Shown piece by piece: positions 2,570 through 45,853 of a DNA stretch of 45,853 nucleotides. The DNA is from a virus. Taxonomy: Duplodnaviria; Heunggongvirae; Uroviricota; Caudoviricetes. The notes below the pieces were generated by a model. It worked only from the letters and a program-made list of their open reading frames with translations, was not told where the DNA came from and did not search any database. Location: the IMG/VR virus record IMGVR_UViG_3300014890_000015, positions 1 to 45,853 of that record; one strand, given 5' to 3'. Position numbers and translations under genes: made by a program. How positions within the stretch are numbered: the first letter of the stretch is position 1; each line of letters starts with the position of its first letter.

Positions 2570-3192
2570 TTTTGAATCACCGTTGTTGCATAGGAATAAA
2601 TAAAAGGGAGTTTTACATATTTCTGGTCAATGGCATCTTTCAGAAAATAGCCTATACCATCACCATATTCTGGTATCTGAATAGAAAAAACACTGTCCGA
2701 TACAGTCACGCTCACATCAAAAGTGTGCTGCAACGGCGGGTCTATTCCGTTTTTCCCATGAATGAACCGTGCCACACGGCGCTTTAACCAGTCAATGCAG
2801 AAATGCGAACCGTCAGCCTTATAAAAATTCCAAGTTAATATTCGCTTGAAATAATCATCCGGAACATACGATGCCTGCCCCGGAACATAATTCCGCATTG
2901 CCGCATAAGGGATTGTATTGTATTCAATGGTATCGTATGCGCCGCGTGCAATAGCCTCCTCGGAAACCTGTAGTAAAGGCCTTTCAACGCCATAAATCCC
3001 GAGAGCAATCCAGTCCAGCAATTGCCCGGTTATTGATTCCGATGTCCAGCATGGCAATGCCAGATTGTTGAGTGAATCGAGGTATTCCTGAGCAATTTCA
3101 TTGTATGCATCAAAGAACGCAACAACATTCGGATCATCTCTGTACTGCACAAACGGATTAGCAGGGAGAATTTTTTCAGTCAGATATTGCAT
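2566..3192 (-). CDS. baseplate/tail protein (P2 gpI / Mu gp48-like position)
   Basis: ORF follows the J-like gene and precedes the tail fibre; start taken at internal ATG 3192 to limit overlap with J; start uncertain. Confidence 0.4.
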   Translation of the reverse strand: MQYLTEKILPANPFVQYRDDPNVVAFFDAYNEIAQEYLDSLNNLALPCWTSESITGQLLDWIALGIYGVERPLLQVSEEAIARGAYDTIEYNTIPYAAMRNYVPGQASYVPDDYFKRILTWNFYKADGSHFCIDWLKRRVARFIHGKNGIDPPLQHTFDVSVTVSDSVFSIQIPEYGDGIGYFLKDAIDQKYVKLPFIYSYATTVIQK

Positions 3193-4402
3193 ACTTGTTA
3201 ACTTGAACCTGTGATACCACCGTCGAAAAATAGGAATAGGTATCGCCATAAACCAGGCTTGTGTCTTTTGCCGGAGGAACAATATGGCCATTAATGCCAA
3301 TGCTCACACTGATTGTTGAGATCAACGTCGCATCAACCAACAATCTGACGGAACTGGTAAAAATATCCTGGATTCGCAGCAGATTTATCGGGTGTCCGAC
3401 TTCAATAGAATTGATGTAATCAGCAACGTTTTGCTGCACAGCCATAGCAATACCCGCCGGATCAACATAATCATCAGATACAGTGTTCCAGGTGATTAGC
3501 ACCATGACGTTTTGTGATGACGGGATAACGAACGGCACCTGATAAACATCTGGCGAAACGGTTATTGAAACCGTGCGTTTTTCCACTGCCGCACCAGATG
3601 GATTGCTAACATCGTTGGTCAGTTTCGAAATATCCGGTACAGATTTGTAAATAGCATAAGCCACATCATACGGATCACCGCCACCAACAACCGCAACCCA
3701 TTTCCCCAGCGACGACTGCCGGAAAGAAATCAGGTTTTCTCGCACACCGCTTACTGATTTGAGCATCGCTTTAAAGCAATCCGGTGTTCCCTGCACACCA
3801 AACATGCCGGACTCCATGACTTCGGCGCGGTAAGATGCCCACGTTTGCGCCTCCTGACCTGGCATCCCTGCGGTAAGGTTCGTGCATTTTACAGGCTGAT
3901 CTTTGGGTACCGATGTAATGACCTGCGTTACGGTTCCTTCCGGTACAGCCCATGAGCCTGACGTTGTGGCCACACAGTAGACTGGCTCAGTCTGCCCGCT
4001 TTCCGGCACCACCGTATCGCGGGAAACTGCATACTGGTAGTTGCCGTCACCGACAACAAATCCTTTAGGGATACCAAACCCCGGCAACGCCTCAAACACC
4101 ACGTATACCGCCGTATTTGTACTTAATCCCTTCTGTGCTCCATAAATGTTTCCGAGTTGCATCAGTAACGGAATATTTGCGCCGTATGGGCTTACGGAGT
4201 TAATAAGGTCCACCCGCGCCTGGTCTATTAATGCCAGCGCCCCGACTGCCGTGCTGGCAAGGTCAGTAATAAGCCCCGCCGGAAGGTTGGCTGTATATCC
4301 AGGTACTTTTTCAGCAACTCTGATGATAAGATTTGCAAGCAAATCATTGGGTGGCGTAGGCTGCGCCCCCGCACTGGTCATAGTAATTGGTATTTCTGAC
4401 AT
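3176..4402 (-). CDS. baseplate J-like protein
   Basis: 408 aa in conserved V-W-J-I-fibre order of P2/Mu-type baseplates. Confidence 0.5.
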   Translation of the reverse strand: MSEIPITMTSAGAQPTPPNDLLANLIIRVAEKVPGYTANLPAGLITDLASTAVGALALIDQARVDLINSVSPYGANIPLLMQLGNIYGAQKGLSTNTAVYVVFEALPGFGIPKGFVVGDGNYQYAVSRDTVVPESGQTEPVYCVATTSGSWAVPEGTVTQVITSVPKDQPVKCTNLTAGMPGQEAQTWASYRAEVMESGMFGVQGTPDCFKAMLKSVSGVRENLISFRQSSLGKWVAVVGGGDPYDVAYAIYKSVPDISKLTNDVSNPSGAAVEKRTVSITVSPDVYQVPFVIPSSQNVMVLITWNTVSDDYVDPAGIAMAVQQNVADYINSIEVGHPINLLRIQDIFTSSVRLLVDATLISTISVSIGINGHIVPPAKDTSLVYGDTYSYFSTVVSQVQVNKYAISD

Positions 4403-4414
4403 ATTTACTCCATT

Positions 4415-4440
4415 AAAAAACCCGCTTTCGCGGGTTTTTT
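4415..4440. terminator. bidirectional rho-independent terminator-like hairpin (A6-CCCGC-TTTC-GCGGG-T6)
   Basis: Perfect GC stem flanked by A-run and T-run, between cargo gene stop (4443) and J start (4402). Confidence 0.6.
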
Positions 4441-4442
4441 AC

Positions 4443-5561
4443 TTATTCAACCTCTTCTAAACTACTCGCTCTGGACCCTCGGCGGAAATTATCATCATTT
4501 TTAACATACTCGTATGAATCCAGAATCAAACCAGATATGCGAAGTATATCTTCCGGATTAGTTATATGTATCCTTTTACCATCCGTATCAAGTCGAGCTC
4601 GTCTTATTTCATTCAACTGAACTTCACTAAGCGAAATAGGTAAAGTTATAAATGAAGATTTTTTATCATAAAATCTTAACAGCCATCTATTAGTTTTACC
4701 ATTCAATAGTACACCAAAATATGACTCAGTATCTTTATATTCTATATTATCTTCTGTTTGTATGATTTGTTTTACCCTTTCAAATAGCTCCAATTCTTTG
4801 GCTGTGGTTATTATGTTGGGGTTTTCTTCATCAACAATGGCGTTATTAACTTGTGTATCCGTTGCATCATTTTCTTTAGTTTGCTCTACCGGTTGTGTAG
4901 ATAGCCCGGAAACCACCATTGCGCTAACAGCGCGCTCAACGGCCTGTTTAACTAATGGAGTCACGAACTCAAGAAATCTCTGATTAAGTTGTCTCTCAAT
5001 ATTTGAACGACTAGCAACATATCGAACAAACTCCAGATCAACTTCACGAAGACTAGAACTGATTGTTTTAGTAAATGAATTCAAATAAACACTTTCTTCA
5101 GCCAGTGTCCGTAAAGCCTCTGGTTTGAATTTATCATAACGAAAACGAAATAATTGTGTAATATCGGAGTGAGTTAGAGAATCCATTCTTATTTTTAAAA
5201 ACGGCGTTGAATCCATTATGTTTTTTTGTTTCAAATCCGTAAAAAAACGCCATTCAACACCATTTGTAATGGCTGATATAGTAACTTCCGGTGTTGAATT
5301 AAAATATCTTGATAGCTGTGGGCAGTGATTATCAATTTGTTCTGAAAACGATTTCGCCTCAATGAACATCACAGGAACATCATGACAAAATAAAGCGTAA
5401 TCAACCCGTTCATTAGCCTTAACCCCGGGGAAGTCAGCACTATACTCAGCTTTGACTTTTCTTGGATCATACGGAGTAAAACCAAGAATATCTAGTAATG
5501 GCATAATGAGTGCTTGTTTTGTCGTTTCTTCAGTTGTACAAAACACCCCATTTTGCAACAT
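4443..5561 (-). CDS. HsdR_N-like / PD-(D/E)xK nuclease-domain protein; moron, candidate phage-defence or exclusion gene
   Basis: N-terminal ~110 aa shows the HsdR N-terminal nuclease pattern (TEETTKQALIMPLLD..LGF, DYALF, VMFIEAK, Q..RY, TNGVEWRFF); C-terminal ~250 aa unassigned; gene visibly AT-rich versus flanks; own leader upstream and terminator downstream. Confidence 0.6.
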   Translation of the reverse strand: MLQNGVFCTTEETTKQALIMPLLDILGFTPYDPRKVKAEYSADFPGVKANERVDYALFCHDVPVMFIEAKSFSEQIDNHCPQLSRYFNSTPEVTISAITNGVEWRFFTDLKQKNIMDSTPFLKIRMDSLTHSDITQLFRFRYDKFKPEALRTLAEESVYLNSFTKTISSSLREVDLEFVRYVASRSNIERQLNQRFLEFVTPLVKQAVERAVSAMVVSGLSTQPVEQTKENDATDTQVNNAIVDEENPNIITTAKELELFERVKQIIQTEDNIEYKDTESYFGVLLNGKTNRWLLRFYDKKSSFITLPISLSEVQLNEIRRARLDTDGKRIHITNPEDILRISGLILDSYEYVKNDDNFRRGSRASSLEEVE

Positions 5562-28202: not shown

Positions 28203-28376
28203 TCATTCGCGAACCACCTTGAAACCGAGCCTTTCAAGGTATTCAATGAATGCCTCGATAGATAAAATTACATGATCATCAGGGATTAACGTTGTGTAGA
28301 CAACTTTCCCATTCTCAACGCGCACAGCATAGAGGCCATTTTCACTAAAAATTTCACGCAATTCTTCGATTTTCAT
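28203..28376 (-). CDS. hypothetical protein (57 aa)
   Basis: ATG preceded by GGAAGGA RBS. Confidence 0.35.
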   Translation of the reverse strand: MKIEELREIFSENGLYAVRVENGKVVYTTLIPDDHVILSIEAFIEYLERLGFKVVRE

Positions 28377-28566
28377 CTTCAGAATCCTTCCAGATAAATA
28401 GCTCTTCCCCTTCGGGGTCCATCCCTCTTCTCCCTGCGCGCTACTTAAGAGCCTCGATTCTAGCCGTGAAGACATACCGATCAACAGCAATAAGCCACCT
28501 GAATAACAGAATCAGCCAGCCACATCAGTACAACCAGATGCATCATGCTCACCGAAAATAAACAAC

Positions 28567-28590
28567 AAAAAACCCGCCGAAGCGGGTTTT
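28567..28590 (-). terminator. terminator hairpin downstream of Doc-like gene
   Basis: AAAAAACCCGCCGAAGCGGGTTTT; T-run on coding strand. Confidence 0.55.
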
Positions 28591-28604
28591 CATTAGAAGC
28601 ATCT

Positions 28605-29090
28605 TTAGTTTTGCTGTTCTATTTTAAGCTTGATAGTTTCATACAAAACAATAGTTGCGCCTGTTTTACATAATTCCCGACTGTCATACGCACGAGACCA
28701 ATAACACAACCAATTTTCAAGCTCTTCTCGTGTATAAATTTTACAGGCCAGCCCCTCAGCCATCTCCACAACTTCATCGCCTGGTGCGGTTAATTCGTAT
28801 CCATTTAACAATAAAAAAACCGCACCAGCCATCATTGCTGTGCGCTTGTTTGCATTGGCAAATGGATGATTCTGAATCAGACTTTCAATCAATACCGATG
28901 CCAGTACAAACATGTCGTTGGTTTGCTCATACCATCGAACCATACTGGGACGAGACTGAGAAGAGCTTAAATTATCAACACTCAGCACACCAACAGGTTC
29001 ATCTGGTGTTTGAAGCTCAATTAAAAGGCGATTAATTTCAGTAAGATCATCAACCGAAAGGTAGTGCACTCCTTCAACAATCTCAGCCAT
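28605..29090 (-). CDS. Doc-like (Fic/Doc family) toxin
   Basis: HPFANANKRTAMMAG matches the Doc H-x-F-x-(D/N)-(A/G)-N-K-R signature; 9-nt gap after an upstream small ORF. Confidence 0.65.
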   Translation of the reverse strand: MAEIVEGVHYLSVDDLTEINRLLIELQTPDEPVGVLSVDNLSSSQSRPSMVRWYEQTNDMFVLASVLIESLIQNHPFANANKRTAMMAGAVFLLLNGYELTAPGDEVVEMAEGLACKIYTREELENWLCYWSRAYDSRELCKTGATIVLYETIKLKIEQQN

Positions 29091-29108
29091 AGAGCACAAT
29101 ACCCATCA

Positions 29109-29288
29109 TTACACTTTTGAAAGATCTTCCATTGCCTTCTCGTAACGAGAAAAACCGAAATCGAAAGCATTTTTCACCTGCTCACGATGAGTGCAATTTT
29201 CATCGATAGCCGGGCGCGGAGCTGCCACAACGCTTTTATCGCGAGGGGGAATAGTCAATCGCGGGTGTTTTTTTAGTGCGTAGCTCAT
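29109..29288 (-). CDS. putative antitoxin partner of Doc-like toxin (59 aa; not in ORF track)
   Basis: ATG with AAGGG RBS; stop 9 nt before toxin start; palindromic operator-like sequence (29351-29374) in its upstream region. Confidence 0.4.
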   Translation of the reverse strand: MSYALKKHPRLTIPPRDKSVVAAPRPAIDENCTHREQVKNAFDFGFSRYEKAMEDLSKV

Positions 29289-29406
29289 TGGTGTACCCTT
29301 ACTTCTCTGTCCTGTTCTTTAACAAAAATTAAGTCAATACAAAATTAGTCAGGCTAATGTTGTTAGCATAGCCTAATACCAATCGTATTCACAACCACAG
29401 TACGTG

Positions 29407-29427
29407 AAAAAACCCGCCGAAGCGGGT
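29407..29427 (-). terminator. terminator hairpin downstream of hok (same 22-nt core as 28567-28590)
   Basis: AAAAAACCCGCCGAAGCGGGTT; T6 on the minus strand. Confidence 0.5.
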
Positions 29428-29497
29428 TAAGTGCGGGTGCGTTGAGGATGCCAACACATCAGAGGTGGCGGGAGATTACTCTCCCGCCTGGTCACTC

Positions 29498-29653
29498 TTA
29501 CTTCTCAGATACGTAGTCCACGAAGACAGCGACCTCCGTCTGGCCGGTTCGGATTCGTACCTCGCAGAGGTCTTTCCTCGTTACCAGTGCCGTCACTATG
29601 ACGGTTAAACAGATGACGATCAGGGCGATTAACATCGCCTTTTGCTGCTTCAT
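29498..29653 (-). CDS. hok: Hok/Gef-family type I toxin
   Basis: 51 aa MKQQKAMLIALIVICLTVIVTALVTRKDLCEVRIRTGQTEVAVF... ; AAGGAG RBS; upstream in-frame/overlapping leader consistent with mok-like region. Confidence 0.8.
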   Translation of the reverse strand: MKQQKAMLIALIVICLTVIVTALVTRKDLCEVRIRTGQTEVAVFVDYVSEK

Positions 29654-29992
29654 AGCCTGCTTCTCCTTGCCTTTCGGCACGTAAGAGGCTAACCTGATGT
29701 TGTCATGCATAGGGAGCCTCAGATTAATGTTAAGCGTCTTGCCGGACGCGTAATGTTAACTGGGGCTTTTCTCTGCCTGCCTTACAGTGGCATGCCCGAG
29801 GCAGACAGCCTCAAGCACCCGCAGCAATCTTACCGACACCGATAAGAAAACGCTATTTTTTATTGCCAGCACCTTCTATCCAGGCTAATTTATCTGCGTC
29901 AGAACGGCGCAATGCGCTCGCCTGAGATACGTTTACTTGCCATGGTAACAACAGATAACGGCAATTGTTGTTTCTGTTTTGTTTCCTTCAAA

Positions 29993-36356: not shown

Positions 36357-36779
36357 TCAATGCACTACGACAGAATCGCCAGGCGACCCGCCGCCGCTGA
36401 AATGTGCTTTACGGTAAACGGCCTGGACTGCATCATCATGCGCATCAATTGCCGTACTCAACGCTTCCTGCGCCGCCAGTAATGCACGGCGTTCCAGGGT
36501 ATCGAAGATGCAGAGTCGGTGACGCAGCTCGCGCGGAAGGATTGCCAGAATTGCAGGGATCAGTTTCTGAATTTTTTCCCTTTGCGCTTCCGTTTCACCT
36601 TTTAACCAACGGTGATAGATGTTCTGCTGATTATTCCAGTCCTTGCCTGGTACCAGGGGCAATTCGCCGCCCCCCTGGCGCAGATATTCTTCAGTAATTG
36701 CGTTAGCGACCCACGCCTGCCCTTTTTCAGCGGCTAGGGCTAACAACACTGATTCGATGTGCTCATGCCTGATTTTCAT
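36357..36779 (-). CDS. YdaT-like (CII-position) protein
   Basis: 140 aa; resembles Rac prophage YdaT from memory; overlaps Cro-like gene end. Confidence 0.5.
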   Translation of the reverse strand: MKIRHEHIESVLLALAAEKGQAWVANAITEEYLRQGGGELPLVPGKDWNNQQNIYHRWLKGETEAQREKIQKLIPAILAILPRELRHRLCIFDTLERRALLAAQEALSTAIDAHDDAVQAVYRKAHFSGGGSPGDSVVVH

Positions 36780-39651: not shown

Positions 39652-42600
39652 ATGAGCACAAAACCACTCTTCCTTTTACGGAAAGCGAAAAAATCATCCG
39701 GTGAACCTGACGTCGTCCTGTGGGCAAGCGACGATTTTGAATCAACCTGTGCCACTCTGGACTACCTGATCGTTAAGTCAGGTAAAAAACTGAGCAACTA
39801 TTTTAAAGCTGTTGCCACAAATTTTCCTGTCGTTAATGAACTTCCCCCTGAAGGTGAGATCGATTTTACCTGGTGTGAACGCTATCAACTCAGCAAAGAC
39901 TCCATGACCTGGGAACTAAAACCGGGAGCAGCGCCAGACGACGTTCACCATCAGGAGGATGCACAGGAAACCGAAGAACCGACGGGAGGCCAGGAAGAAA
40001 ACGCGCAGGCAGACGCCCACGAGGATTGCCAGGATTGCGAAGTCTCTGTAGCCACTTTGCGGTTCACACAGCGTCTTCTGCACATTTTTACGTATGCAGC
40101 CGGGGATCGAAAATACCTGCATCATGCCACCCGTGAACAACGCAAACACATTACTGCTCTTGAGATGGATCAGGAAAACAGCTATGTCCAGAATCTGCTG
40201 TTGGCCATACGCAGCATGGCAGAACCGACAACTCTGGATAATGCCGCCCTGCTCCGCCTGACTGATGCAATTAAGGCAGTGTTCTCTATCACGAAAAAAC
40301 ATCAGCCCTATGAATTTAAGAATTTCATTTCAGCCTGGCTGGATACCGAACACATTGATCGCGGTCTTCTGACAAAAGAATGGCGAAAAGGGAATCGTGT
40401 TTCACGCATCACTCGCACGGCTTCCGGTGCTAATGCTGGCGGCGGGAACCTCACCGATCGCGGCGAAGGTTTCGTCCACGATCTGACGTCACTGGCGCGC
40501 GATGTAGCCACTGGCGTACTGGCCCGTTCAATGGACGTGGACATCTATAACCTTCATCCGGCACACGCTAAACGCATTGAGGAAATTATCGCTGAAAATA
40601 AACCGCCCTTTTCTGTTTTCCGCGACAAATTCATCACCATGCCTGGCGGGCTGGATTATTCCCGCGCCATCGTGGTTGCGTCCGTGAAAGAAGCACCAAT
40701 AGGGATCGAGGCCATCCCCGCACACGTCACTGAATATCTGAACAAAGTACTGACTGAAACCGATCATGCCAACCCTGATCCGGAAATCGTGGATATTGCC
40801 TGCGGTCGTTCCTCTGCCCCGATGCCGCAGCGTGTAACAGAAGAAGAAAAACAGGATGATGAAGAAAAACTGCAACCATCTTGCGCAATGGCAGATGAAC
40901 AGGCAACGGCTGAAACAGTGGAACCGGATGCAACTGAACATCATCAGGACACGCAGCCGCTGGATGCTCAGTCACAGGTAAATTCTGTTGATGCGAAATA
41001 TCAGAAACTGCGGGCAGAACTCTATGAAGCCCGGAAAAACATTCCGCCCAAAAATCCTGTCGATGCAGACAAATTACTGGCTGTCTCTCGCGGAGAATTT
41101 GTTGAAGGGATTAGCGACCCGAATGATCCGAAATGGGTTAAGGGGATCCAGACCCGCGATTCTGTGTACCAGAATCAGCCAGAAACGGAACAGAACGACC
41201 CAAATACGCAACAAAACGAGCCAGAAACGAAACAGCCTGAGCCAGTAGTGCAACAACAGGAAACGGAGAAAGTTTGCACCGCCTGCGGTAAGGCTGGCGG
41301 CGGCAACTGTCCTGACTGTGGTGCGGTGATGGGCGACGCAACGTATCAGAAAACCTTTAATGAAGAAAATCAGAATGAATATCAGGAAAAAGGTCTGGAG
41401 GAAATGGAAGGTGCTGAACATCCGCACAAGGAGAACGCTGGCAGCAATCCGCATTGCGATTGCAGTGATGAAGCTGGTGAAACGACAGCACCTGTAGTAA
41501 CTGAAATCATGTGGCCGTCATATTTCGAGCCTGGCCGCTATGAAAACCTCCCGAACGAGGTTTATCACTCCGCCAACGGAATAAGCAGCACAATGCTGAA
41601 GGATGCCCGCATCAGCCTGATGTATTACCACGGACGGCACATTGCCGGAACTATTCCGGGCGAGGAAAGTGATGCATTGCTGCGTGGGCGGATTATTCAC
41701 AGCTATGTTCTGGAAACGGATAAATTCGCTGATGAGTATGCCATTCCGGTACCGGTTCCTGAATATGTGGTTACTACTTCTAACGAACTGATCGCCATCA
41801 TTAAAAAACACAATGCCAGTCTGCCAGCACTGATGACACCAGAGCAGATGAAAGAGTGGATCGAAAGCTACAACAGCACTCTTATACAGCCACTGTCGGT
41901 AAGTGCCGGGGCCGAAGAAACAGGCATCCTTTACGGTTCGCTTCCGGAGGAATTCCGGCGTATTCCTGAGGGGGAAAAACACACAGCATCAGCAATGAAA
42001 GCCTGTATTAAAGAATACAACGCAAGCCTCCCTCCTCTGCTGAAAGCCAGTGGAACACGAGAGCAGCTCCTGGAGCAAATTGAAACTGTAGATCCAGAAC
42101 TGGCAAAAAAAGAACGTGCTAAATCTTTGCCTTACAACATCAGTGGCACAAAAGAGCAATTAACCGAAATCGCCCGGAAAATTCGCCCGGAACTGGTAAC
42201 ACTGGAGGACTGGCAAAAACGCCAGCAAGAAGAAAACGCCGGGAAAACGTTTATCAGTCCGGATATGTATGAACAGGCAAAAAATATTCACGCAGCACTG
42301 CAAAACAATACTGATGCAGCAAGGCTACTCAACCACCCGGATCGCAAATCTGAAATCAGCTATTTCGGGTTTGATGAAGAAACCGGGCTGGAAATCAGGG
42401 TCCGTCCTGATATCGAAATCCGGCTGCCATACGAAAGCATTTGCGCCGACGTGAAGTCAGTCAGCCTCGGTTATGTGCGACAGGAACGACTGAAAGATCG
42501 CCTGCACCGTGAAATTATTGAACGTGATTATCACCTCAGCGCAGCAATGTATTGCGATGTGGCAAACCTGGACAAATTTTTCTGGATCTTCGTCAACAAA

Positions 42601-42798
42601 GATGCTGGCTATCACTGGGTGGCCGTCGTGGAAGCCTCGCAGGAACTCCTGGAACTTGGTCGACAGGAATATCGCCGGACACTACGACAGATAAACGAAG
42701 CTCTGGAGACAAACAACTGGCCAGCACCGATTACCGAAAGTTATACCGACGAATTAAACGACTTTGATCTTCGTCGTCTTGAAGCACTGAGCATCTGA
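39652..42798 (+). CDS. recE: exodeoxyribonuclease VIII (RecE-like)
   Basis: N-terminus [26 protein letters not shown] recalled as RecE-like; C-terminal PD-(D/E)xK-type nuclease region (RPDIEI...ADVKS); Q/E/P-rich low-complexity linker near 41160-41260. Confidence 0.7.
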
Positions 42799-42809
42799 GG
42801 AAGGACACA

Positions 42810-43862
42810 ATGAACGAATTAACTCAACAAGAAAATATTAACTCTAATGTTGCGGTTTTCAGCCCTCAGTCCCTGGCTGCAATTCAGACATTTTCCCAGG
42901 TAATGGCTTCCGGCATGGCTACTGTACCGGAACACCTCCGGGGAAATCCATCAGACTGCATGGCCATCACCATGCAGGCGATGCAGTGGCAAATGAACCC
43001 TTACGCAGTAGCTCAGAAAACTTTCGTTGTGAATGGTGTGCTCGGATATGAAGCGCAACTGGTTAATGCCGTAATCAGTACTCGTGGGCCGCTAACCGGG
43101 CGTATTGAATATGACTGGTTCGGGCCGTGGGAAAAAATTATCGGGAAATTTGAAATCAGGAAGAACGACAAGGGGAAAGAATATCGTGTACCTGGCTGGA
43201 AGCTGGCCGATGAAAACGGGATCGGAGTTCGCGTCCAGGCAACACTACGCGGAGAGAGCAAGCCACGCGTACTGGAGTTACTTCTGGCGCAGGCCAGAAC
43301 ACGTAACTCAACGTTATGGGCCGATGATCCTCGCCAGCAGCTTGCCTATCTGGCACTGAAACGCTGGGCGCGCCTTTATTGCCCTGAAGTGATTCTTGGA
43401 GTGTACACCCGGGACGAACTGGACGAACCACAGGAAAAAATCATTAATCCGGTTCAGGAACATAAAAATACATCCGCCTGCCGTGCGGAACGTGAAACAA
43501 CAATTATTGAGCAGGATGCCGGGGAAAACTGGATCAGTGCTTTCCGTGAACGTATTGAGCAGGCACAAAGCACCGGAGAAACAACATCACTTCGCCAGGA
43601 AGTGGAAGATCATAAAAATACACTTGGCGCTCTCTACACAGAACTTAAAGGAAAAGTGGTTCAGCGTCATCACCGTCTCAATGCTATTGCCCGTATTGAG
43701 ACGATGATAAATGACCTGCCTTCATCAGGTGATCCAGAAGCAGAACAAAAATTTATTGCTCTGGAAAATACGCTGAATGCTGCACGACCACATCTGGGAG
43801 AATTATATGAGGCGTATAAAACGACACTGACAGATATGAAACCAGAATATATCGGCTCCTGA
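42810..43862 (+). CDS. putative single-strand annealing recombinase (RecT-like partner, assigned by position)
   Basis: 350 aa immediately downstream of recE with good RBS; sequence not clearly RecT-like by eye. Confidence 0.4.
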   Translation: MNELTQQENINSNVAVFSPQSLAAIQTFSQVMASGMATVPEHLRGNPSDCMAITMQAMQWQMNPYAVAQKTFVVNGVLGYEAQLVNAVISTRGPLTGRIEYDWFGPWEKIIGKFEIRKNDKGKEYRVPGWKLADENGIGVRVQATLRGESKPRVLELLLAQARTRNSTLWADDPRQQLAYLALKRWARLYCPEVILGVYTRDELDEPQEKIINPVQEHKNTSACRAERETTIIEQDAGENWISAFRERIEQAQSTGETTSLRQEVEDHKNTLGALYTELKGKVVQRHHRLNAIARIETMINDLPSSGDPEAEQKFIALENTLNAARPHLGELYEAYKTTLTDMKPEYIGS

Positions 43863-44617: not shown

Positions 44618-45853
44618 ATGTCTAAATTACCAACAGGTGTCGAGATTCGGGGTAAATACATTCGCATCTGGTTCATGTTTCGAGGAAAACGATGTCGGGA
44701 AACACTGAAAGGCTGGGAGGTAACTAACAGTAACATTAAAAAGGCCGGGAATTTAAGAGCGTTGATAGTTCATGAAATCAACTCCGGTGAATTTGAGTAT
44801 TTAAGGCGTTTTCCCCAGTCCAGCACTGGGGCAAAAATGGTGACAACGAGGATCATAAAAACGTTCGGGGAGCTTTGTGATATCTGGACAAAAATTAAAG
44901 AGACAGAGTTAACAACAAACACAATGAAGAAAACGAAATCACAATTAAAAACACTCAGAATAATAATTTGTGAGAGCACCCCAATATCACATATTCGTTA
45001 TAGCGATATCTTAAACTATCGGAATGAACTGCTGCATGGAGAAACGCTTTACCTGGATAATCCAAGATCCAACAAAAAAGGAAGAACTGTGCGCACAGTT
45101 GATAACTATATCGCCCTGCTCTGTTCGTTGTTACGTTTTGCATATCAGTCGGGATTTATATCAACCAAACCATTTGAAGGTGTAAAAAAATTACAGCGAA
45201 ACAGAATAAAGCCTGATCCGTTATCTAAAACAGAATTCAATGCATTAATGGAAAGTGAAAAAGGACAGAGCCAGAACTTGTGGAAATTTGCCGTTTACTC
45301 CGGGCTTCGTCACGGGGAACTGGCTGCTCTGGCGTGGGAGGATGTGGATTTCGAGAAGGGAATTGTGAATGTCAGAAGAAACCTGACGATACTTGATATG
45401 TTCGGCCCCCCAAAAACAAATGCGGGGATCCGGACGGTAACACTACTACAGCCTGCTCTTGAAGCACTGAAAGAGCAATACAAACTGACCGGGCATCATC
45501 GCAAAAGCGAAATCACTTTTTATCATCGGGAGTACGGCAGAACCGAAAAGCAAAAACTGCATTTTGTTTTCATGCCCAGGATGTGTAACGGAAAACAGAA
45601 ACCTTATTACTCGGTAAGCAGTTTAGGTGCGAGATGGAATGCAGCTGTAAAACGTGCTGGTATTCGCCGCCGTAATCCGTACCATACGCGGCATACTTTT
45701 GCCTGCTGGCTGTTGACGGCAGGAGCGAACCCGGCGTTTATAGCCAGCCAGATGGGGCATGAAACTGCGCAGATGGTGTATGAAATTTACGGTATGTGGA
45801 TTGATGACATGAACGACGAACAGGTAGCCATGTTGAATGCGCGGTTATCGTAG
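44618..45853 (+). CDS. int: tyrosine recombinase, phage integrase
   Basis: 411 aa; catalytic-region pattern VYSGLRHGEL ... HTRHTFACWLL ... MGHETAQMVYEIYGMW (R, H-x-x-R, Y); ends at last base of window. Confidence 0.85.
   Translation: MSKLPTGVEIRGKYIRIWFMFRGKRCRETLKGWEVTNSNIKKAGNLRALIVHEINSGEFEYLRRFPQSSTGAKMVTTRIIKTFGELCDIWTKIKETELTTNTMKKTKSQLKTLRIIICESTPISHIRYSDILNYRNELLHGETLYLDNPRSNKKGRTVRTVDNYIALLCSLLRFAYQSGFISTKPFEGVKKLQRNRIKPDPLSKTEFNALMESEKGQSQNLWKFAVYSGLRHGELAALAWEDVDFEKGIVNVRRNLTILDMFGPPKTNAGIRTVTLLQPALEALKEQYKLTGHHRKSEITFYHREYGRTEKQKLHFVFMPRMCNGKQKPYYSVSSLGARWNAAVKRAGIRRRNPYHTRHTFACWLLTAGANPAFIASQMGHETAQMVYEIYGMWIDDMNDEQVAMLNARLS

What the first reader, a model, noticed from the sequence alone, without database searches (positions are those of the whole stretch)
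28567..29432. Doc-like toxin with an unlisted 59-aa upstream partner, bracketed by identical hairpins
The 28605..29090 product carries the Doc signature HPFANANKR. Nine nt upstream is a 59-aa ORF (29109..29288) with its own RBS that is missing from the ORF track; this is the usual antitoxin-then-toxin layout. Its promoter region holds nested palindromes (AGGCTAATGTTGTTAGCATAGCCT, 29351..29374), as expected for an autoregulated antitoxin. The cassette is flanked by two copies of the same 22-nt terminator core (AAAAAACCCGCCGAAGCGGGTT at 28567.. and 29407..), suggesting acquisition as a unit. The small protein resembles no antitoxin I can name.
Basis: partly seen in the sequence, partly recalled or inferred. 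Interest (0 to 1): 0.55.

Follow-up and report, generated by a model that had tools for sequence, protein, structure and literature searches.

The report
Mobile Doc toxin cassette, unnamed partner
A Rac-type prophage carries an 840-bp insertable two-gene cassette: a Doc-family toxin preceded by a conserved 59-residue protein of unknown family that is very probably its antitoxin. This is an ordinary kind of system with an uncharacterised partner.

Summary
On the minus strand, 28605..29090 encodes a Doc-family protein (TIGR01550 E=4e-35; motif HPFANANKR, catalytic residues invariant). 29109..29288 encodes a 59-aa protein with a good Shine-Dalgarno. The 22-nt hairpin core occurs exactly at 28567 and 29407.

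The small gene is real: dN/dS is about 0.1, and it is always 59 codons in the Enterobacterales loci examined. It belongs to a tiny family (PHROG 2208) with no Pfam, NCBIfam, PADLOC or PDB match. It sits 2-18 nt upstream of a Doc gene in every enterobacterial and Pseudomonas-phage locus examined. The flanking genes differ between these loci.

E. coli genomes hold precise empty sites: hok, one hairpin, then the rem-like gene. So the 840-bp unit is gained or lost between the hairpin repeats.

Two points are not supported. The "nested palindrome" is no better than chance (125 of 300 shuffles), and no consensus promoter is found here.

Antitoxin function is inferred, not shown. The most likely mechanism is neutralisation through the C-terminal amphipathic helix (residues 34-57), analogous to the C-terminal neutralising domain of Phd. 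No homology to Phd, YhfG/FicA or AbrB-type Doc partners was detected.

Verdict: a new variant of a known kind, of moderate interest.

The parts
28567..28588 (-). Hairpin copy 1: Rho-independent terminator of the cassette. On the minus strand it reads AACCCGCTTCGGCGGGTTTTTT, followed by GTTGTT. It begins 16 nt after the Doc stop codon.
   Evidence: Exact 22-mer. Called terminator-like on the minus strand at 28591..28568. Most of the relatives' cassettes examined (10 of 15 non-E. coli loci, all enterobacterial) also have a terminator directly after the Doc stop, and it is nearly the same stem-loop in Citrobacter L004 and Pantoea L030.
28605..29090 (-). Doc-family toxin gene, 161 aa. Fic/Doc motif H75-P-F-A-N-A-N-K-R83. 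C-terminal extension relative to P1 Doc.
   Evidence: TIGR01550 DOC_P1 120.7 bits against a cut-off of 38.65. Pfam Fic E=1.6e-11. phrog_577 'Doc-like toxin' E=1e-48. PDB sequence hits are E. faecalis Doc 9vzc and P1 Doc 3k33. H75, F77, N81, K82, R83 and T84 are invariant, including against P1 Doc. Foldseek top hits are P1 Doc.
29091..29108 (-). 18-nt spacer between the two genes with no good Shine-Dalgarno. Translational coupling is likely.
   Evidence: Read from the sequence. The gap is 2-18 nt in all relatives.
29109..29288 (-). 59-aa protein gene, the putative antitoxin. Residues 1-33 are extended and carry the motif RLxIPxRDK. Residues 34-57 form an amphipathic helix ending ...RYEKAMEDLSKV.
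   Evidence: phrog_2208, full length, E=5e-42, function unknown. dN/dS 0.08-0.12. 36 clusters among 1.84 billion representatives. AF2 pLDDT 83, helix 34-57. Always directly upstream of Doc.
29296..29300 (-). Shine-Dalgarno (AAGGG) of the small ORF, 7 nt before the ATG.
   Evidence: Read from the sequence. A GAGG-like element sits at the same place in all lineages.
29351..29374 (.). Palindrome AGGCTA-N12-TAGCCT, with an inner GCTAA-N5-TTAGC. Operator role unproven.
   Evidence: Present, but 125 of 300 shuffles reach arms of 6 bp or more. Identical only in the E. coli copies.
29373..29381 (-). TGGTATTAG: candidate extended -10 element. It is homologous to the -10 region of relatives that have TTGACC-N17/18-TAGACT. 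The -35 is degenerate here.
   Evidence: Upstream alignment. No site reaching 9 of 12 in 29289-29406. This is an inference.
29407..29428 (-). Hairpin copy 2: terminator at the end of the upstream hok mRNA, and the right-hand border of the inserted unit.
   Evidence: Exact 22-mer. Homology to empty sites resumes exactly here. hok and sok lie upstream.
28589..29428 (-). The 840-bp insertion/deletion unit: 818 nt of cassette plus one hairpin copy.
   Evidence: A construct with this segment deleted matches E. coli genomes in a single piece of 756-757 nt (H63-H84). Junction alignment A5. GC 41.3% against 47.9% for the window.

Best explanation
This is a two-gene type II toxin-antitoxin cassette carried as a 'moron' in the nin region of a Rac-type prophage.

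The downstream gene encodes a Doc-family Fic-fold kinase. By homology with P1 Doc, it would phosphorylate EF-Tu and arrest translation. The upstream gene encodes a 59-aa protein that neutralises it by direct binding.

Most likely the C-terminal amphipathic helix (residues 34-57; F42, F46, Y49, M53, L56) packs into the Doc groove, as the C-terminal domain of Phd does. The conserved extended N-terminal segment (RLxIPxRDK) would add contacts. The small protein has no recognisable DNA-binding fold, so it is probably a neutralisation-only antitoxin.

The antitoxin has a strong Shine-Dalgarno. The toxin has none and lies 18 nt downstream, so it is probably translated by coupling at a lower rate. A terminator closes the unit.

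The whole 840-bp unit was gained (or can be lost) by recombination at a 22-nt terminator hairpin shared with the end of the hok transcript.

Shown here: family membership of Doc, coding selection on the small gene, strict adjacency across taxa and contexts, and presence/absence at the hairpin. Inferred: toxicity, neutralisation, the binding mode, the promoter, and the recombination mechanism.
For: Doc identity and an intact catalytic motif.

The small ORF is coding. dN/dS is 0.08-0.12 with saturated dS. It is 59 codons with no indels in 17 loci. Variable sites by codon position are 31/21/56. The Shine-Dalgarno is conserved.

Adjacency starting from the small gene:
- 12 of 12 genome loci from nine genera have Doc directly downstream: Serratia, Citrobacter, Kluyvera, Hafnia, Morganella, Rosenbergiella, Providencia, Izhakiella and Yersinia.
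- Four of six distant representatives (40-50% identity) are followed by a Fic/Doc gene at 2-6 nt.

Adjacency starting from Doc: Salmonella, Serratia and Pantoea Doc homologs all have the 59-aa ORF 4-10 nt upstream. They sit in a tail module, next to Bro/pRha genes and in a baseplate module, respectively. In Pseudomonas phages Sirocco and LPPA56 the pair sits at the integrase end.

The distance matrices of the two proteins correlate: r = 0.92, Mantel 0 of 2000.

A terminator follows directly after Doc in most enterobacterial lineages examined.

Empty alleles differ from the occupied allele by exactly the 840-bp unit.

AF2 of the small protein gives one confident helix, 34-57, with an extended N-terminal part.

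Precedent from the literature: an isolated Phd C-terminal peptide binds and inhibits Salmonella Doc (PMC9207808). A Phd-C element alone, when stabilised, neutralises a Doc toxin, and single-domain neutralisation-only antitoxins exist (PMC10440598).
Against: - No experiment and no complex model.
- No detectable homology of the small protein to Phd, YhfG/FicA or any Pfam, NCBIfam, PADLOC or PDB entry. The binding mode therefore rests on analogy and on a hydrophobic-spacing resemblance I noted by eye.
- No consensus sigma-70 promoter upstream in this window, so expression in the lysogen is unproven.
- The palindrome is at chance level.
- Two weak family members lack a Doc neighbour: P0052 clearly; for P0047 the contigs end 13-225 nt downstream, though tblastn found no Doc start in what remains.
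- The Doc AF2 model is poor, pLDDT 62.6.
Confidence: 0.7

Rival explanations
1. The pair works mainly as a prophage-encoded anti-phage or superinfection-exclusion module (abortive infection). The small protein holds Doc inactive until an incoming phage shuts off host expression or degrades it. Doc then blocks translation. The biochemistry is the same as a TA module, but the selected function is defence rather than addiction.
For: The cassette sits in moron positions in many unrelated temperate phages: the integrase end, tail or baseplate modules, and the nin region. It is flanked by terminators, so it is insulated from phage operons. It lies next to another toxin locus, hok/sok. TA modules are increasingly found to defend against phages (PMC10440598).
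Against: PADLOC gives only sub-threshold hits for Doc (E of 0.0016 or worse) and none for the small protein. No infection data exist. This reading does not exclude the best explanation; it concerns the biological role only.
Confidence: 0.3
2. The small protein is not the antitoxin. It could be a regulator, chaperone or adaptor, or have no link to Doc activity. This Doc would then be non-toxic or controlled in another way, for example by an RNA or by a host factor.
For: No homology to any antitoxin. No DNA-binding or known neutralisation motif; [ST]xxxE[GN] occurs in only 2 of 34 members. Rare family members occur without Doc.
Against: It is the only gene that travels with Doc across contexts. 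The spacing is tight, 2-18 nt, with the small gene first. The two proteins co-diverge. The Doc catalytic motif is intact, so an unopposed active Doc should be lethal. No third conserved gene is present.
Confidence: 0.1
3. The two identical hairpins are just two independent, similar terminators (hok's and the cassette's own) and say nothing about how the cassette was acquired.
For: The CCCGC-TTCG-GCGGG-T6 terminator is a common design. A 2-mismatch copy lies at 4419-4440. Citrobacter and Pantoea cassettes in other contexts end with almost the same stem-loop. So copy 1 may be intrinsic to the cassette.
Against: Empty alleles carry exactly one copy. Their left flank continues as the left flank of copy 1 and their right flank as the right flank of copy 2. 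So the breakpoints fall inside the shared 22 nt. That is the signature of a crossover within the repeat. The two readings are compatible: a pre-existing similarity could have provided the homology.
Confidence: 0.2

Closest known systems
Phd-Doc of bacteriophage P1, and Salmonella Phd-Doc
   Same: A Fic-fold Doc toxin with the HxFx(D/N)(A/G)NKR motif. The gene order is small upstream gene, then toxin. It is carried by a temperate phage. The proposed neutralisation is by a C-terminal helical segment of the small protein. The P1 and Salmonella Phd C-termini do this alone (PMC9207808; PDB 3k33 and 3dd7 are the top fold matches).
   Different: The partner is not Phd. There is no Phd/YefM Pfam or TIGR hit, and hhalign probability is 1%. 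There is no N-terminal DNA-binding fold, and the protein is 59 aa rather than 73 aa. This Doc is only about 24% identical to P1 Doc and has a conserved C-terminal extension of about 35 aa (ENWLCYWSRxYDSRxLC).
Enterococcus faecalis chromosomal Phd-Doc (PDB 9vzc; PMC13034048)
   Same: It is the closest solved Doc by sequence (E=6e-14 over residues 6-117).
   Different: According to the paper's abstract, its antitoxin is a Phd with a distinct DNA-binding architecture. The partner here has neither.
PanA_Phd-C:Doc (Corynebacterium doosanense), and neutralisation-only antitoxins in the NetFlax network (PMC10440598)
   Same: The concept that Doc is neutralised by a short, exchangeable helical element, and that antitoxins can consist of the neutralising element alone.
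   Different: There is no Panacea domain here. Homology of the 59-aa helix to Phd-C is not demonstrated. I could not establish whether NetFlax lists this family.
Class I Fic antitoxins (VbhA, YhfG/FicA)
   Same: A small, helical protein of about 55-60 aa encoded directly upstream of a Fic-fold toxin, without a DNA-binding domain. Makarova et al. 2009 list YhfG as a partner of Fic/Doc.
   Different: The inhibitory motif (S/T)xxxE(G/N) is absent, present in only 2 of 34 members. hhalign against YhfG finds nothing. The toxin carries the Doc kinase motif, not the AMPylating HxFx(D/E)GNGRxxR motif.
Phage morons (promoter-gene-terminator units inserted between conserved phage genes)
   Same: The unit lies between conserved genes (hok and the rem-like gene). 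It has its own terminator, lower GC (41.3% against 47.9%), presence/absence polymorphism, and the same cargo in different slots of different phages.
   Different: The own promoter is not convincing in this copy. The borders are a 22-nt direct repeat of a terminator hairpin, which is not a general feature of morons.

Membership tests
Doc (death-on-curing) subfamily of Fic proteins | Scores above the curated cut-off of TIGR01550 (DOC_P1) and of Pfam PF02661 | tested here: met
   120.7 bits against a cut-off of 38.65. 45.3 bits against 24.
Doc (death-on-curing) subfamily of Fic proteins | Doc-type active-site motif HxFx(D/N)(A/G)NKR, the kinase variant of the Fic motif (from established knowledge: Castro-Roa et al. 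2013) | tested here: met
   H75-P-F-A-N-A-N-K-R83. H, F, N81, K, R and T are invariant across 22 sequences including P1 Doc.
Doc (death-on-curing) subfamily of Fic proteins | Fic/Doc all-helical fold | tested here: inconclusive
   The AF2 model is weak (pLDDT 62.6). Foldseek's top four hits are P1 Doc chains (probability 1.00), but E is about 7e-3 and TM 0.42-0.55.
Doc (death-on-curing) subfamily of Fic proteins | Phosphorylates EF-Tu and arrests translation (toxicity) | not testable with these tools
   Needs an expression or kinase assay.
Type II toxin-antitoxin module | Two adjacent co-oriented genes, with the small protein gene conserved next to the toxin gene across genomes | tested here: met
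   Gap of 2-18 nt. Co-divergence r = 0.92.
Type II toxin-antitoxin module | The antitoxin protein binds and neutralises the toxin | not testable with these tools
No experiment.
Type II toxin-antitoxin module | Autoregulated promoter with an operator bound by the antitoxin or the complex | tested here: inconclusive
   The window's palindrome is at chance level. No shared motif is enriched. Providencia-type copies have a dyad in the promoter spacer that keeps symmetry through a compensatory change. No DNA-binding fold is seen in the small protein.
Phd/YefM antitoxins | Match to Phd/YefM profiles, or profile similarity to P1 Phd | tested here: not met
   No Pfam or NCBIfam hit at E of 1 or below. 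hhalign probability 1.1%.
AbrB-type Doc partner (TIGR02609) and Xre-type partners | Match to AbrB/SpoVT or HTH profiles | tested here: not met
   No hit for the window protein or for 34 family members.
Class I Fic antitoxins (VbhA, YhfG/FicA) | Inhibitory helix motif (S/T)xxxE(G/N) | tested here: not met
   Present in 2 of 34 members, at non-equivalent positions. hhalign against YhfG gives probability 0.2%.
Phage moron | A discrete unit with its own terminator, inserted between genes that are adjacent in related phages | tested here: met
   Terminator. Empty alleles in phage Rac MN652886 and in about 20 listed E. coli genomes.
Phage moron | Own promoter active in the lysogen | tested here: inconclusive
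   No site reaching 9 of 12 in 29289-29406. Only a TGGTATTAG element is shared with relatives that do have full promoters.

The most novel reading that the evidence does not exclude
The 59-aa family (PHROG 2208) is a previously unrecognised, minimal, neutralisation-only Doc antitoxin. It would be unrelated, or only convergently similar, to Phd-C, and would use an amphipathic helix plus a conserved extended IPxRDK arm reaching the kinase active site. The cassette would be a self-contained defence moron. It would hop between temperate phages of Enterobacterales and Pseudomonas by short-homology recombination at terminator hairpins, possibly catalysed by the phage's own RecET.
Probability: 0.3. 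Interest if true: 0.55.

Novelty: new variant of a known kind. Interest (0 to 1): 0.4.

Why it matters
Doc toxins are usually discussed with Phd-type partners. Here a whole subfamily lives almost entirely in prophages: at least 239 Doc clusters at 90% identity, from Escherichia, Salmonella, Serratia, Providencia, Yersinia, Pantoea and Pseudomonas phages. It is paired with a tiny protein that every database calls 'hypothetical'.

Naming this partner would correct the annotation of thousands of genomes where Doc looks like an orphan toxin. It would add a case of a DNA-binding-less antitoxin. It would also give a very small (59 aa) natural inhibitor scaffold for a Fic-fold kinase.

The precise empty and occupied alleles bounded by a terminator hairpin are also a clean natural example of how morons are gained or lost.

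Tried and rejected
1. AF2 of the complex as a linker fusion, and as a read-through translation.
2. Scan of viral contigs with the broad alignment.
3. The palindrome as an operator. A shuffle test shows it is not unusual. A k-mer enrichment test across 13 lineages found no motif above shuffles; the (A/T)TAGC half-site I noticed by eye is not significant.
4. Homology of the small protein to P1 Phd and to YhfG by hhalign: none. To PDB by profile: only noise. By fold: no hits.
5. PADLOC: no defence-system assignment.
6. Literature. No paper mentions WP_000119356. Searches on Doc and prophage terms gave only general TA papers. The NetFlax supplements gave no way to link this family.
7. The C-terminal pattern match to Salmonella Phd hot spots (F56/M60/H63/L67/L70 against F42/F46/Y49/M53/L56, both ending 3 residues after the last Leu) is my own by-eye alignment. 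No statistic supports it, and I keep it only as an idea.
8. A sigma-70 promoter by hand. Several weak candidates were found, none convincing.
Full report
**1. What is in the sequence**

On the minus strand the region reads, in transcription order, as follows.

- The hok/mok gene at 29498..29710 (Pfam HOK_GEF E=1e-22), with its sok antisense region at 29648-29820 (Rfam RF01794, 110 bits).
- A hairpin at 29428-29407.
- A 118-nt intergenic region.
- A 59-aa ORF at 29288..29109.
- An 18-nt spacer.
- A 161-aa ORF at 29090..28605.
- 16 nt further on, a second hairpin at 28588-28567.
- A rem-like small gene, then DUF1367, DUF1364 and DUF1133/Q-like genes.

The 22-mer AAAAAACCCGCCGAAGCGGGTT is exact at both positions. 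None is expected by chance, and a 2-mismatch copy lies at 4419-4440. On the minus strand both copies read as a CCCGC-TTCG-GCGGG stem-loop followed by T6. The scanner calls copy 1 a terminator. Copy 2 fails that scan only because the scanner extends the stem into the T run; this is my reading of the sequence.

The window as a whole is a Rac-type prophage. It has RecE- and RecT-like genes, an integrase and a YdaT-like gene. Its best identity to E. coli genomes over this region is about 92-96%.

**2. The toxin gene**

The 161-aa product passes TIGR01550 (DOC_P1) at 120.7 bits against a cut-off of 38.65. It also matches Pfam Fic and PHROG 577 'Doc-like toxin'.

Its nearest solved relatives by sequence are Enterococcus faecalis Doc (9vzc, E=6e-14) and P1 Doc (3k33, E=2e-4).

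The Doc-type motif is H75-P-F-A-N-A-N-K-R83. In an alignment of 21 subfamily members plus P1 Doc, the residues H75, F77, N81, K82, R83 and T84 are invariant.

An AF2 model is of low quality (pLDDT 62.6). Even so, its top Foldseek hits are P1 Doc chains, followed by VbhT and other Fic domains.

The subfamily has a conserved C-terminal extension (ENWLCYWSRxYDSRxLC) that P1 Doc lacks. RefSeq already names the gene 'type II toxin-antitoxin system death-on-curing family toxin'. Homolog N-termini (MAE(I/F)VEG) fix the start at ATG 29090, not at the TTG at 29099. The intergenic gap is therefore 18 nt, not 9.

**3. The small gene is real, and it is Doc's constant companion**

Coding evidence:
- It is exactly 59 codons in all 17 enterobacterial loci I compared.
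- dN/dS against the window is 0.08-0.12, with synonymous sites saturated.
- Variable sites by codon position are 31/21/56.
- A GAGG-type Shine-Dalgarno precedes it in every lineage. Here it is AAGGG, 7 nt before the ATG.

It is full-length PHROG 2208, function unknown. Public records call it 'hypothetical' or 'bacteriophage protein' on more than 1000 contigs.

The family is tiny. It has 16 clusters at 90% identity in 5.8 billion proteins, and 36 representatives with E of 1e-3 or better among 1.84 billion. All have a core of about 45-60 aa with the consensus M..A.KK..RL.IP.RDK..VA.P.P..G...H..QV.NAF...F.RYEKA.E.LSKV.

Adjacency was tested in both directions.

- Starting from the small protein. 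All 12 genome loci found have a Doc homolog directly downstream. They come from Serratia, Citrobacter, Kluyvera, Hafnia, Morganella, Rosenbergiella, Providencia, Izhakiella and Yersinia pestis. Four of six distant representatives (40-50% identity) are followed at 2-6 nt by a Fic/Doc gene. The two exceptions are the weakest hits. P0052 has no Doc. For P0047 the contigs end 13-225 nt downstream, though tblastn found no Doc start in what remains.
- Starting from Doc. Salmonella, Serratia and Pantoea homologs all have the 59-aa ORF 4-10 nt upstream.

The surrounding genes differ completely between these loci:

| Host | Genes around the cassette |
|---|---|
| This window (Rac-type prophage) | hok and rem-like gene |
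| Salmonella | tail tube, KilA-N, tape measure |
| Serratia | Bro-N or pRha antirepressor genes |
| Pantoea | baseplate genes |
| Pseudomonas phages Sirocco and LPPA56 | integrase end |

No third gene is conserved. The pairwise distances of the two proteins across 18 lineages correlate with r = 0.92 (Mantel 0 of 2000). So the two genes travel and diverge together.

**4. What the small protein looks like**

With the 34-sequence alignment, AF2 gives pLDDT 83. The model has one helix, residues 34-57, and an extended N-terminal 33 residues that include three prolines in the conserved IPPRDK...PRP stretch. The helix is amphipathic.

There is no match to any of the following:
- Pfam, for the window protein or for any of 34 members;
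- NCBIfam, including the Phd and AbrB-type 'doc_partner' models;
- PADLOC;
- PDB, by profile or by fold.

hhalign against P1 Phd and against YhfG/FicA is null. The class I Fic inhibitory motif (S/T)xxxE(G/N) is absent.

The families known to partner Fic/Doc toxins are PHD, AbrB, Xre and YhfG (Makarova et al. 2009), plus PanA carrying a Phd-C element (Ernits et al. 2023). This protein is none of them by any test I could run.

**5. Most likely mechanism**

The catalytic motif of Doc is intact. The gene order, the spacing, the strong-then-absent Shine-Dalgarno pattern and the co-inheritance are those of a type II TA operon. I therefore take the 59-aa protein to be the antitoxin.

It has no fold beyond one helix, so direct neutralisation by that helix is the simplest model.

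There is precedent. A 22-residue C-terminal Phd peptide alone binds Salmonella Doc with a Kd of about 73 pM and inhibits the kinase. Its hot spots are F56, I59, M60, H63, L67 and L70 (PMC9207808). A stabilised Phd-C element alone neutralises a Corynebacterium Doc, and neutralisation-only antitoxins are known (PMC10440598).

By eye, F42, F46, Y49, M53 and L56 of the small protein have the same i, +4, +7, +11, +14 spacing. Both proteins end three residues after the last Leu. No statistic supports this, and it remains a hypothesis.

The role of the invariant N-terminal IPxRDK arm is unknown. It may give extra contacts or reach the active site.

**6. Regulation: weak evidence**

The palindrome exists, as AGGCTA-N12-TAGCCT with an inner GCTAA-N5-TTAGC. 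But 125 of 300 shuffles of the intergenic region give an equal or longer perfect inverted repeat. It is shared only with the near-identical E. coli copies.

Across 13 lineages no k-mer is enriched above shuffles. No sigma-70-like site reaching 9 of 12 lies in 29289-29406.

Relatives do have clear promoters. Izhakiella and Salmonella have TTGACC-N17/18-TAGACT. Providencia and Morganella have TTGACT-N17-CATTAT. The Providencia-type copies carry an 8-9-bp dyad in the spacer that keeps its symmetry through a compensatory change (TAATGAAA/TTTCATTA against TAATGTAA/TTACATTA).

In this window only the TGGTATTAG(G)CT element around the -10 is retained (29373-29381). The -35 position is degenerate, about 25 nt from the hairpin junction.

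How this copy is transcribed is open. Candidates are a weak extended -10, read-through of the hok terminator, or anti-terminated early phage transcription.

**7. Acquisition as a unit: supported**

Phage Rac MN652886 has hok, then one hairpin, then rem. blastn shows that homology to the window resumes exactly at 29407 on the right. The single hairpin, plus 5 nt to its left, matches copy 1.

As a further test I built a construct with 28589-29428 deleted. It matches about 20 listed E. coli genomes (mostly porcine ETEC) in one uninterrupted piece of 756-757 nt at 90.6-92.4% identity. Cassette-bearing genomes match it in two pieces spanning about 1600 nt.

The junction alignment shows that the empty allele equals the left flank of copy 1, one hairpin, and the right flank of copy 2. 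The polymorphism is therefore exactly 818 nt of cassette plus one 22-nt repeat.

About 120 of 5426 complete E. coli genomes carry the occupied form. In the O103:H2 strain fetched, copy 2 has since mutated, so the perfect identity is not universal.

Most of the relatives' cassettes examined (10 of 15 non-E. coli loci, all enterobacterial) end with their own terminator directly after Doc. In Citrobacter and Pantoea it is almost the same stem-loop.

A reasonable inference follows. The cassette's own terminator was similar to the hok terminator, and this provided the short homology for a crossover. For example, a circular or heterologous intermediate could integrate Campbell-style. The prophage encodes RecE/RecT, which can use short homologies; that point rests on established knowledge, and the mechanism was not tested. 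Deletion between the repeats would equally produce the empty allele, so the direction of the event is unresolved.

Cassette GC is 41.3% against 47.9% for the window, in the lowest 6% of windows of equal size.

**8. Comparison and novelty**

The module works like Phd-Doc. The toxin is a member of the Doc family, with the defining sequence features met. The partner is not a member of Phd/YefM, AbrB-type, Xre-type or YhfG/VbhA antitoxins; their defining features were tested and not met.

I found no paper that names or tests this small protein. I could not determine whether large TA network surveys list it.

I classify the finding as a new variant of a known kind: a widespread, prophage-borne Doc subfamily with an uncharacterised, minimal, probably DNA-binding-less antitoxin. 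For a TA specialist this is useful and testable, but not startling.

**9. Verdict**

- Observation: confirmed, with the gap corrected to 18 nt.
- Interpretation: partly supported. The TA layout, the novelty of the partner and acquisition as a unit hold up. The palindrome and autoregulation do not, and function is unproven.
- Confidence in the TA reading: 0.7.
- Interest: 0.4.

Noticed in passing
window 29498-29820 (-): A complete hok/mok/sok type I toxin-antitoxin locus sits directly upstream of the Doc cassette (HOK_GEF E=1e-22; Rfam sok 110 bits). Two toxin systems are stacked in the nin region.
   Followed up: partly
window 4419-4440 (-): A third near-copy (2 mismatches) of the same terminator core, AAAAAACCCGCGAAAGCGGGTT, lies between structural ORFs 3176-4402 and 4443-5561. 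This stem-loop design recurs in the phage.
   Followed up: no
window 39652-43862 (+), 44618-45853 (+), 36357-36779 (-): The prophage encodes a 1048-aa RecE-like exonuclease VIII, RecT, an integrase and a YdaT-like protein, so it is Rac-type. RecET could mediate the short-homology recombination inferred at the hairpins.
   Followed up: partly
L007 about 1540-1570; L009, L012, L013, L014 at equivalent positions upstream of the small ORF: The Providencia and Morganella copies have a TTGACT-N17-CATTAT promoter. The spacer is an 8-9-bp dyad that keeps its symmetry through a compensatory change (TAATGAAA/TTTCATTA against TAATGTAA/TTACATTA). This is a better operator candidate than anything in the window.
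   Followed up: partly
L015-L017 (P0047) and L018-L019 (P0052): The weakest family members occur without a Doc gene. One follows an asparagine-synthase-like gene; for it the contigs end 13-225 nt downstream, with no Doc start detected in what remains. The other lies in an array of small phage-like genes. They may be orphans or false positives.
   Followed up: partly
L023 529-1920: A metagenomic relative has the small gene followed by two tandem Fic-domain genes (145 aa and 242 aa).
   Followed up: no
L034 about 2700-2725 (E. coli O103:H2 strain 129): Hairpin copy 2 is mutated in the O103:H2 strain fetched (AAAAAAAACCGCCGAAGTAGGTT), which would weaken the hok terminator stem. This could allow read-through into the cassette.
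   Followed up: no
window 28203-28490 (-), 28457-28484 (-): The rem-like small ORF downstream (phrog_340) has the only promoter-like site reaching 9 of 12 in the region, just upstream of it. RefSeq annotates only a pseudogene fragment at the equivalent place in E. coli.
   Followed up: no
cluster 2 (E. coli Doc): Truncated Doc variants (139-140 aa and 117 aa partial) are recorded on dozens of E. coli contigs. This may indicate decay of the toxin in some lysogens.
   Followed up: no
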